Source: a virus. From it: a stretch of 10,606 bases of DNA. A program made the translations under genes and the position numbers. Location of the stretch: the UHGV virus genome UHGV-0360087; one strand, given 5' to 3'. Below the pieces are notes generated by a model. That model did not search any database. It had not been told where the DNA came from and worked only from the letters and a program-made list of their open reading frames with translations. Shown piece after piece: positions 1,356 to 4,114 of this stretch (position 1 is the stretch's first letter; every line of letters begins with the position of its first letter).

Positions 1356-2513
1356 TCACTCTACCTTTTCATCAAGCCAGTCCGCCCACCACTGCATCAT
1401 TTCTCTGCGCTTATCGAGATACTGTGCATGGTTGTAAATCCCGCGCACAGATCCGCCGTTGGCATGTGCAAGTTGCACTTCAATGGCGTCGGCAGGCCAT
1501 TCGTGCTCGTTCATAATCGTGCTGAATTCATGCCTGAATCCGTGACCGCTTTCCAGACCTTCATAGCCGATTTGTTTGATCACAAGCAGTACAGCGTTCT
1601 CGCAAATTGGCTTCTTCTTATCGTTGCGCCCGGCAAAAACAAACTCTGATACTGGTTTGGTGATTGAGCTTAGCATAGTGAGAAGTTCAACTACCTGGTC
1701 TGACATAGGAACCACATGAATTTTGCGTCCCTTCATCACATTGGCGTCGATGGTGATAATCCTGTTTTCAAAATCGACGTTCTTCCATAGCATGGAACGA
1801 AGCTCTTTTGTTCTGAGGGCTGTGTAGCGTAAAACTTTGGTCGCAATGAGCGATACGATGCTTCCTGAAAATGTTGCCAGTGCTTTGTTAAATGCCGGGA
1901 TCTGGTCTGCAGGAAGAAACGGGAAGTTTTTCTTGCGGTATCCCTTCATGGCGTCAGCAAGGTCAGGTGCCGGGTTATATTTAGCCCTACCAGTAACAAT
2001 AGCGTAACGGAAAACCTCGCCGCATCTTCTGCGGGCTTTATTTGCTCTCTCCATTGCACCGCGATCTTCAAATCTGCGGATTACTTCCAGCAGTTGCATC
2101 GGCTCAATATCCTGAATTTCAAGGCCGCCGATGATAGGTAAAATGTCGTCATCAAACATTTTTGCAAGTTCAGTCGCATACCCTACTGACCATACTTGCT
2201 TCTTGTGCTCGTACCATTCCTTGTAAATCGCACTAAAGGAATTGTTGTTAGACGAAGCCTTTTTCGCCTTTACCGGATCGATGCCAACCGAGATGTCTTT
2301 CCTCGCAGTCCATGCCTTATCCCTTGCCTCCTGCAAAGTCATTAGCGGATATTTTCCTACGGTCAGGATTTTCTCCTTACCGTCAATCTTGTAGCGAAGC
2401 TGCCATACCTTTTTCCCTGACACAGGGACATAAAGGTACAGGCCATTACCATCGAGTAGGCGGTATGGTTTTTCTTTCGGCTTTGCTGCTTCAATCTGCT
2501 TAACGGTGAGCAT
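1356..2513 (-). CDS. intS: Tyrosine integrase, P4/IntS family, 385 aa
   Basis: The N-terminus from the ATG at 2513 (MLTVKQIEAAKPKEKPYRLLDGNGLYLYV...) is a DUF4102-type arm-binding domain. The C-terminus has the catalytic HxxR (GHGFRHEF) and Tyr (GIYNHAQY). It lies directly downstream of the tRNA. The ORF could start at GTG 2549 instead, 12 codons longer. Confidence 0.9.
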   Translation of the reverse strand: MLTVKQIEAAKPKEKPYRLLDGNGLYLYVPVSGKKVWQLRYKIDGKEKILTVGKYPLMTLQEARDKAWTARKDISVGIDPVKAKKASSNNNSFSAIYKEWYEHKKQVWSVGYATELAKMFDDDILPIIGGLEIQDIEPMQLLEVIRRFEDRGAMERANKARRRCGEVFRYAIVTGRAKYNPAPDLADAMKGYRKKNFPFLPADQIPAFNKALATFSGSIVSLIATKVLRYTALRTKELRSMLWKNVDFENRIITIDANVMKGRKIHVVPMSDQVVELLTMLSSITKPVSEFVFAGRNDKKKPICENAVLLVIKQIGYEGLESGHGFRHEFSTIMNEHEWPADAIEVQLAHANGGSVRGIYNHAQYLDKRREMMQWWADWLDEKVE

Positions 2514-2674
2514 GGGTAAAAATCCGGTGGGTAAAATTATTTTATCCACTTTTTACCCGTCATGGAGTGCGGCTGTCAACGATCTGACGCGAACCATGAC
2601 GAACTGTGAATCTACGGAAGGCTTGATATTCAGGGGATTTTGCGGACTGGTACGGATGGGAGCGAACTGATAAA

Positions 2675-2749
2675 TGGTGTCCCCTGCAGGAATCGAACCT
2701 GCAATTAGCCCTTAGGAGGGGCTCGTTATATCCATTTAACTAAGGGGGC
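2675..2749 (-). tRNA. argW: tRNA-Arg, anticodon CCU, 75 nt including encoded CCA
   Basis: The reverse complement folds as a cloverleaf: D arm with GG, anticodon loop CU-CCU-AA, T arm GCAGG-TTCGATT-CCTGC, and 3' ACACCA. The acceptor stem has one C2-A71 mismatch. Confidence 0.85.
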
Positions 2750-2944
2750 ATAGATATGATTGATTTTTAAGCTTTCTGCTTGTTTTACATGTTATCCCAT
2801 TAGTTCATGTATCATCAAGCATTTCGTTCCTTTTCTTTCTCCTTTCTTCGCATCCTTTCCTATACAAAATCACCTCGTTCACTTGCCATTGCGTACAGAT
2901 TGAGTACAGAATGCTGAAATTCAGTGTGTACAGGATACAGAGAC

Positions 2945-4114
2945 GTGGCCCTCAGTGATACCAAACTTCGTAGCATCAATGGTAAGCCCTACAGCGGCGC
3001 ACCCGAAGTCACAGATGGTGACGGTTTGAGTGTGCGTATTACTCCGACTGGAACGATTACATTTCAGCATCGATATCGCTGGAACGGTAAGCCTGTTCGC
3101 CTCTCTGTCGGCCGGTATCCTGCAATGTCCCTCAAAGAGGCCCGCGTTATCGTCGGTGAGATGCGCGAATTGTACCTCAAGGGGCTAAACCCTAAAAATT
3201 ATTTTGCCAAAGAAGATGGCGAGCTAACGCTCAAAGAGTGCCTGGATCAGTGGTGGACTAAGTATGTTGAAACGCTGAAGCCTAATACCCAGACGCTGTA
3301 TAAGTCGGTTGTGTACAACACCATGTACACAGAGTTCCCGGACGCACCGGTCGTAAACATCCCCGTTTCGGCTTGGGTAAGGTTCTTCGACAAGCAGGAG
3401 AAGAAAAACGGGAAAAAGGCTCGGGTGCTGCTGCTCCAACTCCGATCCGTAATGAACTGGTGTATCAGCCGTCAGCTGATCCCTTCGTGCGAGGTGCTGA
3501 AACTCAGCGTTAAGACCATCGGCAAGAAACCAGACGTTGGTAGCCGGGTACTCACTTATACCGAGCTGGCAAAAATCTGGTTAGCGCTGGAAAACAATAA
3601 GGTCGTTAGCTCCAATAAGGTTCTTCACCAGTTGCTGTTGCTCTGGGGTGCGCGATTATCCGAACTGCGCCTGGCCACCGCAAGTGAGTTCAATATGGGC
3701 GATCTGATTTGGACGACGCCAGCCGAGCATTCCAAAATGGGAAATGTTATTCGTCGGCCTATATTCGACCAGGTTAAACCTTACATTGAAAGGCTTCTCA
3801 ATGCTGGGAACGATATTCTTTTCCCGGGTCAGGAACTGGACAAGGCTATAGATCGCTCCTCAGCCAATCTCTACATGAAAAAGTTAAGGGATAAAATTGA
3901 TATACCGGAATGGCGAACCCACGACTTCAGGCGTTCTCTGGTAACGAATTTGTCAGGGGAGGGGGTTATGCCCCATGTCACTGAAAAGATGCTGGGGCAT
4001 GAACTTGGTGGTGTGATGGCGGTGTATAACAAACACGACTGGCTGGTGGAGCAGAAAGACGCTTATGAGCTTTATGCCGATAAAGTGTTCTGGCACGTCA
4101 AACAGCTCGGTTAA
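2945..4114 (+). CDS. Tyrosine integrase (phage integrase family with DUF4102-like N-terminus)
   Basis: GTG at 2945 gives MALSDTKLRSINGKPY..., a typical N-terminus for this family. The ORF is open from GTG 2924, which is the alternative start. C-terminal motifs HDFRRS, LGH and catalytic Tyr (AVYNKHDW) are present, and the stop TAA is at 4112-4114. Confidence 0.85.
   Translation: MALSDTKLRSINGKPYSGAPEVTDGDGLSVRITPTGTITFQHRYRWNGKPVRLSVGRYPAMSLKEARVIVGEMRELYLKGLNPKNYFAKEDGELTLKECLDQWWTKYVETLKPNTQTLYKSVVYNTMYTEFPDAPVVNIPVSAWVRFFDKQEKKNGKKARVLLLQLRSVMNWCISRQLIPSCEVLKLSVKTIGKKPDVGSRVLTYTELAKIWLALENNKVVSSNKVLHQLLLLWGARLSELRLATASEFNMGDLIWTTPAEHSKMGNVIRRPIFDQVKPYIERLLNAGNDILFPGQELDKAIDRSSANLYMKKLRDKIDIPEWRTHDFRRSLVTNLSGEGVMPHVTEKMLGHELGGVMAVYNKHDWLVEQKDAYELYADKVFWHVKQLG

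What the first reader, a model, noticed from the sequence alone, without database searches (positions are those of the whole stretch)
1356..4114. Two different tyrosine integrases face outward from a single tRNA-Arg gene
The IntS-type integrase lies at the tRNA 3' side in the classic arrangement. The second integrase starts only about 195 bp from the tRNA 5' end on the opposite strand and heads a lambdoid prophage. A 5'-flank insertion is not the usual tRNA-3'-end targeting, so either the second prophage uses an attachment site in the tRNA 5' region or promoter, or it marks a separate event at an adjacent site.
Basis: partly seen in the sequence, partly recalled or inferred. Interest (0 to 1): 0.5.

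Follow-up and report, generated by a model that had tools for sequence, protein, structure and literature searches.

The report
Two prophages flanking one tRNA-Arg gene
Two unrelated mobile elements have each integrated into opposite ends of the same arginine tRNA gene, and the right-hand phage uses the unusual 5' (D-arm) end and brings its own tRNA 5' end and probable promoter; this arrangement is real but already known from Shiga-toxin phages and Klebsiella islands.

Summary
argW (tRNA-Arg CCU, 2675-2749, minus) has IntS (99% identical to K-12 CPS-53/KplE1) on its 3' side. A second, very different P4-type integrase (true start 2945) lies 195 bp from its 5' end and heads a lambdoid prophage.

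Empty-site and far-end comparisons show the second phage recombines inside the tRNA gene. Its core is tRNA positions about 1-24 (5' acceptor strand plus D-arm). The native 5' fragment, native promoter and yfdC are displaced to the far end.

Free phage genomes (e.g. Stx2 phage 86) carry this 24-nt fragment in attP next to int. Integrases at least 68% identical in about 10 enterobacterial genera sit beside the 5' end of tRNA-Arg(CCU) wherever flank allowed a check, bar one locus.

The phage DNA upstream of the tRNA holds a conserved sigma-70-like motif (TTGATN-18-TANNAT, fixed 39 bp from the tRNA). I infer it now drives argW.

In this window the phage-supplied 5' end creates a C2·A71 mismatch.

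The arrangement is already annotated for Stx2a phages, and a 2020 Klebsiella preprint describes it, including occupancy of both ends. So this is a new member of a known kind, of modest interest.

The parts
45..665 (+). DUF4376 (tail-fibre-assembly-like) gene. It belongs to the element on the IntS side of argW, which runs off the left end of the window.
   Evidence: Pfam DUF4376, E 6e-17. Homologous DNA is annotated as a DUF4376 protein in E. coli O104:H4 prophages.
866..1135 (-). Remnant of a YkgJ-family cysteine-cluster gene on the IntS-side element.
   Evidence: No Pfam hit. The homologous DNA is annotated 'YkgJ family cysteine cluster protein' in RefSeq genomes.
1356..2513 (-). intS, the P4-type tyrosine integrase of the CPS-53/KplE1-type element at the argW 3' end. 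The mechanical ORF extends to a GTG at 2549.
   Evidence: 383/385 identical to K-12 IntS. Pfam Arm-DNA-bind_3, Phage_int_M and Phage_integrase.
2674..2689 (-). IntS/KplE1 16-nt att core (CTGCAGGGGACACCAT on the tRNA strand), overlapping the 3' end of argW.
   Evidence: Read in the sequence. The core sequence is given in PMC2951348. K-12 annotates the CPS-53 start inside the last 15 nt of argW.
2675..2749 (-). argW, tRNA-Arg(CCU). It is a recombinant gene: positions ~6-75 are host, and the 5' end (GCCCCC...) is phage-supplied, giving a C2·A71 mismatch.
   Evidence: ARAGORN. Rfam tRNA scores 60.5 bits with a non-canonical 2:71 pair, against 63.4 bits for K-12. Alignment to K-12.
2726..2749 (.). 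att core of the right-hand prophage, equal to tRNA positions 1-24 (5' acceptor strand, D-stem, D-loop). 2727-2744 is identical between host and this phage, so the crossover fell there. 2745-2749 is the phage version.
   Evidence: Direct repeat in L004, 20028-20051 vs 30478-30501. attB/attL/attR alignment. GenBank attL of VT2phi_272 and the 24-bp 'duplication due to insertion'. Contiguous attP in phage 86.
2789..2818 (-). Predicted phage-borne sigma-70 promoter reading into argW: -35 TTGATG (2818-2813), 18-bp spacer, G at -14, -10 TAACAT (2794-2789). The predicted leader is about 32 nt.
   Evidence: In 2750-2870 only A2789, T2793, A2794, C2796, C2816-A2818 and T2823 are invariant in 25 loci from about 10 genera. 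The spacer is 18 bp in all 25, and the distance to the tRNA is 39 bp in 24 of 25 (38 in one). The homologous site in O157 644-PT8 passes the consensus scan, TTGATT-18-TATTAT. Function is inferred, not shown.
2883..2912 (+). Predicted int promoter: -35 TTGCCA, 18 bp, -10 CAGAAT.
   Evidence: Consensus scan. It sits in the most conserved block of the spacer.
2893..2932 (+). Three direct GTACA repeats (2893-2897, 2904-2908, 2928-2932). They are probably arm-type integrase sites overlapping the int promoter.
   Evidence: Invariant or nearly so in 25 loci. Similar TGTGTACA..GTAC repeats lie in the opposite arm near attR/attP. Binding is inferred.
2945..4114 (+). Integrase of the lambdoid prophage, a P4-type tyrosine recombinase of the clade that targets the argW 5' end.
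   Evidence: Pfam Arm-DNA-bind_3 and Phage_integrase. 87% aa identity to Stx2 phage 86 Int. Relatives sit beside the tRNA-Arg(CCT) 5' end in about 10 genera.
4098..4340 (-). Small HTH protein (AlpA/Xis-like), the probable excisionase. The real start is likely internal, giving about 61 aa.
   Evidence: Pfam HTH_17 at 20.6 bits, below the cutoff of 27. Homologous position is annotated as a 60-aa HTH regulator in L001 and L002. The role is inferred.
4337..10606 (.). Lambdoid early region: DUF4222, TraR zinc finger, Dam methylase, Gp157, RecT, Gam, CI-type S24 repressor (8339-9094), Cro/YdaS (9133-9363), YdaT (9433-9972) and the start of the replication genes.
   Evidence: Pfam. RefSeq annotation of 99%-identical DNA.

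Best explanation
Two independent integrative elements occupy the two ends of one tRNA gene.

The left element (CPS-53/KplE1 type) used IntS and the classic 16-nt core at the argW 3' end.

The right element is a lambdoid prophage whose P4-type integrase recombines a 24-bp attP core with tRNA positions 1-24 of argW (5' acceptor strand plus D-arm). The phage core lies next to int and faces away from it. Integration therefore leaves int 195 bp upstream of the tRNA on the opposite strand. It replaces the first few nucleotides of the tRNA and all of its upstream DNA with phage DNA. It moves the native promoter, the native 5' tRNA fragment and yfdC to the far end of the prophage.

I infer that a conserved promoter in the phage arm (TTGATG-18-TAACAT, 39 bp upstream) now transcribes argW and that RNase P trims the leader. 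I also infer that GTACA repeats overlapping the int promoter are arm-type sites that let Int regulate itself.

In this window the phage-supplied 5' end (GCCCCCU) does not match the E. coli 3' strand, giving a C2·A71 mismatch.

Shown: site, core, displaced fragment, attP and clade-wide site use. Inferred: promoter activity, arm-site binding, and function of the hybrid tRNA.
For: - Homology to empty-site K-12 ends at the tRNA 5' end.
- E. coli 720632 has int DNA 100% identical to the window. Its gene order is dsdC-argW-[int...prophage remnant]-yfdC.
- In 720632 a 24-nt direct repeat of the tRNA 5' end sits at the far end, and native upstream DNA follows it.
- O157 644-PT8 shows the same layout with a 24-bp perfect repeat.
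- A chimeric attP query built from the O157 attR and attL junctions matches full-length in one piece in free-phage records, including the circular Stx2 phage 86, vB_EcoS_P27 and phi345. Read directly in phage 86, the core TTATATCCATTTAACTAAGAGGAC lies next to int.
- GenBank annotates attL over the tRNA 5' end and a 24-bp insertion duplication.
- 21 loci with integrases at least 68% identical carry tRNA-Arg(CCT) on the opposite strand, from Enterobacter, Erwinia, Pantoea, Phytobacter, Xenorhabdus, Providencia, Salmonella, Morganella, Proteus, Rouxiella and others. Its 5' end lies about 150-200 bp before int. Klebsiella shows the same.
- Promoter inference: the only invariant spacer columns correspond to the -35 TTG and to G-14, T-12, A-11 and T-7. 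Spacing is fixed. The O157 homologue passes the consensus scan.
- Independence: single and double occupancy states all exist.
Against: - The window does not contain the far end of its own prophage. The repeat was seen in a relative with identical int, where the prophage is IS-degraded.
- The window's own -35/-10 scores only 8 of 12 and was not called by the consensus scan.
- The fixed spacing and conserved bases could reflect Int or IHF binding architecture rather than a promoter.
- No expression data were examined.
- One close relative with 3 kb of flank (Erwinia typographi, L019) showed no tRNA.
- Whether the C2·A71 tRNA is functional is unknown.
Confidence: 0.85

Rival explanations
1. The right-hand prophage sits at a separate intergenic site between yfdC and argW that has nothing to do with the tRNA sequence. 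Its closeness to the tRNA is coincidental.
For: The integrase is on the atypical 5' side, and STEC papers describe the location only as 'argW-(prophage)-yfdC'.
Against: The direct repeat is the first 23-24 nt of the tRNA itself. All 76 bp of native yfdC-argW spacer lie at the far end. attP carries the tRNA fragment. The tRNA linkage holds in about 10 genera with different neighbours.
Confidence: 0.03
2. The att site is in the tRNA 5' end as described, but the conserved TTGATN-18-TANNAT block is recombination architecture (core-proximal Int, IHF or Xis sites), not a promoter. argW in lysogens would then be transcribed from elsewhere, weakly, or not at all.
For: Fixed spacing without indels is expected for intasome sites. 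ATCAAG resembles part of the IHF consensus WATCAANNNNTTR (my reading). The window's version fails the 9-of-12 scan threshold. argW is dispensable, because tRNA-Arg(UCU) can read AGG (own knowledge).
Against: The invariant bases are exactly those most conserved in sigma-70 promoters (-35 TTG; -12 T, -11 A, -7 T; -14 G), while neighbouring bases vary freely. The motif points toward the tRNA. The Stx2a-phage version is a 9-of-12 match. Elements that restore their target gene usually keep it functional (PMC7192596).
Confidence: 0.25
3. The arrangement results from a rearrangement (inversion or recombination between prophages) that placed a 3'-targeting prophage on the wrong side of the tRNA.
For: Prophage-mediated inversions are common in E. 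coli (general knowledge), and the window is mosaic.
Against: Flanking gene order and orientation (dsdC-argW ... yfdC-mlaA-fadL) are those of K-12. The same geometry and distances occur across genera. The free-phage attP predicts exactly this geometry.
Confidence: 0.01

Closest known systems
argW-integrating Stx phages (Stx2 phage 86, VT2phi_272, Oslovirus PA2/ArgO145 types)
   Same: The integrase is the same clade (87% aa to phage 86 Int). The 24-bp core at the tRNA 5' end, the divergent int and the conserved spacer motifs are the same. IntS also lies on the other side of argW in O157 644-PT8.
   Different: The cargo differs. The early region here has RecT, Gp157 and Dam, and no stx gene is visible in the window. 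The int DNA is only about 75-85% identical. The core has two substitutions that create a tRNA mismatch.
Klebsiella islands and prophages at the 5' end of arg2A (integrase clade I.d; bioRxiv 10.1101/2020.11.02.365908)
   Same: The preprint reports a recombination site covering the 5' acceptor half, D-stem and D-loop. It reports integration upstream of the tDNA and two strains with one element at each end. Klebsiella prophages with about 83% identical int DNA sit at the tRNA-Arg(CCT) 5' end.
   Different: The host genus differs. That arg2A is tRNA-Arg(CCU) is my inference. The preprint does not discuss promoter replacement or hybrid tRNA mismatches.
KplE1/CPS-53 IntS-TorI module and Kapi1/Sf6-type phages at the argW 3' end
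   Same: The left-hand integrase is IntS (99%) with the 16-17 nt core at the tRNA 3' end. An int promoter overlapping arm-type sites is the published IntS paradigm (PMC2951348). I infer a similar layout for the second integrase.
   Different: The second integrase shares only the arm-binding domain with IntS (35%). It uses the opposite end of the gene and the opposite geometry.
dusA-associated integrases (PMC4482086)
   Same: The element targets the 5' end of a conserved host gene (abstract), so it has to restore the 5' end rather than the 3' end.
   Different: The target is a protein-coding gene and the integrase family is different. No sequence comparison was made here.

Membership tests
Heterobivalent P4-type tyrosine integrases | C-terminal tyrosine-recombinase catalytic domain | tested here: met
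   Pfam Phage_integrase: E 1.2e-16 for 2945-4111 and 1.6e-38 for IntS. R (GARLSELR), HxxR (HDFRRS) and H...Y (GHE...AVY) motifs are readable in the translation.
Heterobivalent P4-type tyrosine integrases | N-terminal arm-type DNA-binding domain | tested here: met
   Pfam Arm-DNA-bind_3 in both integrases.
Heterobivalent P4-type tyrosine integrases | Arm-type repeats in attP bound by the N-domain | tested here: inconclusive
   Conserved GTACA repeats occur in both arms. Binding is not testable here.
argW 5'-end (D-arm) targeting integrase clade (Stx phage 86 / Klebsiella clade I.d type) | Close sequence relationship to integrases with a mapped argW 5' att | tested here: met
   87% aa identity to phage 86 Int. 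The DNA matches VT2phi_272, whose attL is annotated at the tRNA 5' end.
argW 5'-end (D-arm) targeting integrase clade (Stx phage 86 / Klebsiella clade I.d type) | int divergent from tRNA-Arg(CCU), about 150-200 bp from its 5' end | tested here: met
   195 bp in the window. The same holds in 21 related loci.
argW 5'-end (D-arm) targeting integrase clade (Stx phage 86 / Klebsiella clade I.d type) | Direct repeat of tRNA positions ~1-24 at the far prophage end | tested here: met
   Seen in E. coli 720632 (int DNA identical to the window) and in O157 644-PT8. The window's own far end lies outside the window.
argW 5'-end (D-arm) targeting integrase clade (Stx phage 86 / Klebsiella clade I.d type) | Demonstrated integration and excision at this core | not testable with these tools
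   Only indirect evidence: contiguous attP in circular phage genomes against split sites in lysogens.
IntS/KplE1 (CPS-53) module | IntS orthologue next to the argW 3' end with the 16-nt core CTGCAGGGGACACCAT | tested here: met
   383/385 identity. The core is at 2674-2689 (core from PMC2951348).
IntS/KplE1 (CPS-53) module | Second core copy and TorI RDF at the far end | not testable with these tools
   The far end lies beyond the left edge of the window.
Canonical tDNA sublocations (anticodon loop, T loop, 3' end; Williams 2002 as quoted) | [quoted passage not shown] | tested here: not met
   For the second integrase the repeat is tRNA positions 1-24, and the element supplies the 5' part. IntS does meet this feature.
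Lambdoid prophage | CI-type repressor and Cro divergent pair, with recombination and replication early genes in lambda order | tested here: met
   S24/HTH repressor, Cro/YdaS, YdaT, Gam and RecT. Late genes are outside the window.

The most novel reading that the evidence does not exclude
Phages of this clade do more than restore argW. They put the host's only tRNA-Arg(CCU) gene under a phage-borne promoter embedded in the att arm. Expression of the rare AGG-decoding tRNA, and in this window its acceptor-stem integrity (C2·A71), would then be set by the prophage. It might also respond to Int or Xis binding during lysogeny and induction. Neither the promoter swap nor the mismatched hybrid tRNA was mentioned in the papers I could search.
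Probability: 0.3. Interest if true: 0.55.

Novelty: new member of a known kind. Interest (0 to 1): 0.3.

Why it matters
The finding gives a clean sequence-level account of a fourth tDNA sublocation, the 5' acceptor/D-arm. This site mirrors the textbook 3'-end rule, and medically important Stx2a phages use it.

It explains how one tRNA gene can host two unrelated elements without competition.

If the inferred promoter is real, lysogeny rewires transcription of a rare-codon tRNA, and in some lysogens alters the tRNA itself. That could affect AGG decoding and phage or host gene expression.

Practically, prophage-boundary tools that look only for 3' tRNA fragments will mis-delimit these prophages.

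Tried and rejected
- A megablast of the whole window against complete E. coli genomes found no genome with more than 32% in one place. The source genome and the window's own far end could therefore not be recovered.
- The suggested search for repeats of 2750-2920 at the far end was replaced by a repeat search in L004. The repeat turned out to be 2726-2749.
- The consensus promoter scan did not call the tRNA-facing motif in the window (8 of 12). It also did not call the native K-12 argW promoter. The promoter claim therefore rests on cross-genus conservation.
- I considered an IHF-site reading of ATCAAG. It fits the consensus only partly, and I keep it as a rival.
- vB_EcoS-733R5 was rejected as a free-phage attP example because the record includes host genes.
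- Williams 2002 could not be read. Its classification is quoted second-hand.
- Two literature searches failed on syntax.
- No protein-database, structure or metagenome searches were needed.
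Full report
**Observation**

ARAGORN finds a single tRNA-Arg(CCT) at 2675..2749 on the minus strand.
- On its 3' side lies ORF 1356..2549 (-). From the K-12 start codon (2513) it is 383/385 identical to IntS of the K-12 cryptic prophage CPS-53/KplE1.
- The published 16-nt KplE1 core CTGCAGGGGACACCAT (PMC2951348) overlaps the tRNA 3' end at 2674-2689.
- On the 5' side lies ORF 2924..4114 (+). Its conserved start is the GTG at 2945 (MALSDTKLR, AGGA upstream), matching the RefSeq starts of homologues.
- Both proteins have the Arm-DNA-bind_3 and Phage_integrase domains of P4-type integrases. 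They share only about 35% identity over the arm-binding domain.
- Downstream of the second integrase is a lambdoid early region: Xis-like HTH, DUF4222, TraR, Dam, Gp157, RecT, Gam, S24 CI repressor, Cro/YdaS and YdaT.

**Where the second prophage is integrated**

K-12 has yfdC, a 76-bp spacer, argW, then intS.
- Aligned to the window, identity runs through the whole tRNA and stops at its 5' end.
- E. coli 720632 carries int DNA 100% identical to window 2700-3973. It has no IntS element. Its order is dsdC, argW, int, an IS-degraded prophage, yfdC.
- A repeat search there finds TATATCCATTTAACTAAGGGGGCA at the intact tRNA 5' end. It finds TATATCCATTTAACTAAGAGGACA 10.4 kb away, directly followed by the native argW upstream DNA and yfdC.
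- O157 644-PT8 has both integrases around argW and an Stx2a-type prophage. It shows the same layout with a perfect 24-bp repeat TTATATCCATTTAACTAAGAGGAC.

So the att core is tRNA positions 1-24: the 5' acceptor strand, D-stem and D-loop. The intact gene is a recombinant whose extreme 5' end and whole upstream region are phage DNA. The native promoter plus a 23-nt 5' fragment are displaced to the far end. In the window type, host and phage cores differ at tRNA positions 2 and 5, which places the crossover within 2727-2744.

**attP in free phage genomes**

I built a chimeric query from the O157 attR phage side, the core and the attL phage side. It matches full-length in one piece in circular or virion-derived genomes, including Stx2 phage 86, vB_EcoS_P27 and phi345/346/349. 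In phage 86 the 24-nt tRNA fragment lies between the last late gene and int. Its Int is 87% identical to the window's.

**Is this a property of the integrase clade?**

A scan of one genome per species returned 57 loci.
- 21 loci with integrases at least 68% identical have tRNA-Arg(CCT) on the opposite strand, with its 5' end about 150-200 bp before int. They come from Enterobacter, Erwinia, Pantoea, Phytobacter, Xenorhabdus, Providencia, Salmonella, Morganella, Proteus, Rouxiella and others.
- Three close relatives showed no tRNA. In two (L017, L020) the contig ends about 190 bp before int. The third (L019, Erwinia typographi) has 3 kb of flank and still no tRNA.
- Relatives at 62% identity or less (Orbus, Vibrio, Shewanella and others) showed no tRNA-Arg in the flank held, up to 3 kb where the contig allowed. 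The one tRNA call there (tRNA-Ile, Tatumella L030) lies downstream of int.
- Klebsiella prophages show the same arrangement.

**What the phage arm contains**

I aligned 25 occupied sites. The 120 bp next to the tRNA are poorly conserved except for eight invariant columns: A2789, T2793, A2794, C2796, C2816-A2818 and T2823.
- Read on the tRNA strand, seven of these are the -35 TTG, G-14, T-12, A-11 and T-7. The spacer is exactly 18 bp in all 25. The distance from the -10 hexamer to tRNA +1 is 39 bp in 24 of 25.
- These are the most conserved positions of sigma-70 promoters. The O157 version (TTGATT-18-TATTAT) passes the consensus scan. The window's version (TTGATG-18-TAACAT, 8 of 12) does not.
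- I therefore infer, but have not shown, a phage-borne promoter that drives argW with a leader of about 32 nt.
- Nearer int, a strongly conserved block contains a scan-positive promoter facing int (TTGCCA-18-CAGAAT). Three GTACA repeats overlap it. Similar repeats lie in the other arm.
- This resembles the published IntS layout, in which arm sites overlap the int promoter (PMC2951348). It suggests autoregulation, which is an inference.

**The hybrid tRNA**

E. coli argW begins GUCCUCU and pairs with AGGGGAC. The window and 720632 begin GCCCCCU, which gives C2·A71. Rfam marks the pair as non-canonical, at 60.5 against 63.4 bits.
- Among the 25 sites this is the only true mismatch. Xenorhabdus sp. 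TCT-1 has the matching GCCCCCU/AGGGGGC. Xenorhabdus sp. BG5 has the converse hybrid, U2·G71.
- This int variant is rare in complete E. coli genomes: 1 of 5,426 at high identity. Its closest protein relatives are in Enterobacter soli (94%) and Pantoea (93%). That fits recent arrival from another genus.

**Independence of the two elements**

All states exist:
- 3' only (K-12);
- 5' only (720632);
- both (the window, 644-PT8 and JNEC-KY177);
- neither, as reported for strain KP7 (PMC8787464).

The two cores (2674-2689 and 2726-2749) do not overlap, so the sites do not compete.

**Comparison with what is known**

- GenBank already annotates attL over the tRNA 5' end in VT2phi_272, and a 24-bp insertion duplication in many Stx2a phage records.
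- STEC papers give the location as argW-(Stx2a prophage)-yfdC (PMC9729726; PMC9997748).
- A 2020 preprint on Klebsiella (10.1101/2020.11.02.365908) describes islands at the 5' end of arg2A. Their recombination site covers the 5' acceptor half, D-stem and D-loop. The authors call this a novel D-loop sublocation with its own integrase clade. They note two strains with an element at each end of the tDNA.
- That preprint does not discuss promoter replacement.
- The element-supplied 5' end resembles integrases that target the 5' end of dusA (PMC4482086).

**Verdict**

It is a further member of a known, if under-publicised, kind. The modestly new points are the cross-genus conserved promoter-like motif that would take over argW transcription, and the mismatched hybrid tRNA in this lineage. 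Both need experiments.

Noticed in passing
window 2745-2749 (tRNA positions 5-1) vs 2678-2684: The phage-supplied tRNA 5' end is GCCCCCU, where E. coli has GUCCUCU. This creates a C2·A71 mismatch (and turns U5·G68 into C5-G68) in the cell's only argW copy. Among 25 occupied sites it is the only true acceptor-stem mismatch.
   Followed up: partly
window 2924-2947: The mechanical ORF starts at GTG 2924. The conserved start is GTG 2945 (MALSDTKLR), with AGGA at 2932-2935. Likewise IntS most likely starts at ATG 2513, not GTG 2549.
   Followed up: yes
window 1-10606: No complete E. coli genome holds more than about a third of the window in one place. 7177-10606 is 99% identical to prophages in many strains, while the int segment is 100% identical in only one strain (720632, where IS1 truncates it). 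The prophage is a mosaic.
   Followed up: partly
L008 2755-2826 (Enterobacter soli): The tRNA-Arg(CCT) next to the related integrase ends in ...AATA instead of ...ACCA. ARAGORN nt. The 3' end may also have been replaced by another element.
   Followed up: no
L004 30390-30430; L065 ~4332-4355; L066 1643-1665: The far (int-distal) arm carries TGTGTACATA..GTAC repeats about 70-90 bp from the core. In phage 86 and O157 a GC-rich hairpin (GCCCCGTAC..GTGCGGGGC) precedes them and looks like the terminator of the last late gene.
   Followed up: no
L001 7429-7461: In the O157 version the tRNA-facing promoter-like site overlaps a plus-strand match (CTGATA-18-TAAAAT) on the same 30 bp. It may be face-to-face promoters or chance.
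   Followed up: no
loci L027, L031, L033-L035, L037-L039, L041-L064: Integrase relatives at 62% identity or less (Orbaceae, Vibrio, Shewanella, Psychromonas, Endozoicomonas) show no tRNA-Arg in the flank held (up to 3 kb). The clade has apparently switched target sites. Their targets were not identified.
   Followed up: no
L004 30478-30580 and L065 ~4415-4512: At the far end the displaced native argW promoter and 23-nt tRNA stub point into the prophage's last gene. Antisense transcription into the prophage end is possible.
   Followed up: no
window 816-1163: Overlapping ORFs on both strands correspond to fragments annotated as YkgJ-family cysteine-cluster proteins in O104:H4-type prophages. 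This is likely a decayed gene between the DUF4376 gene and intS.
   Followed up: partly
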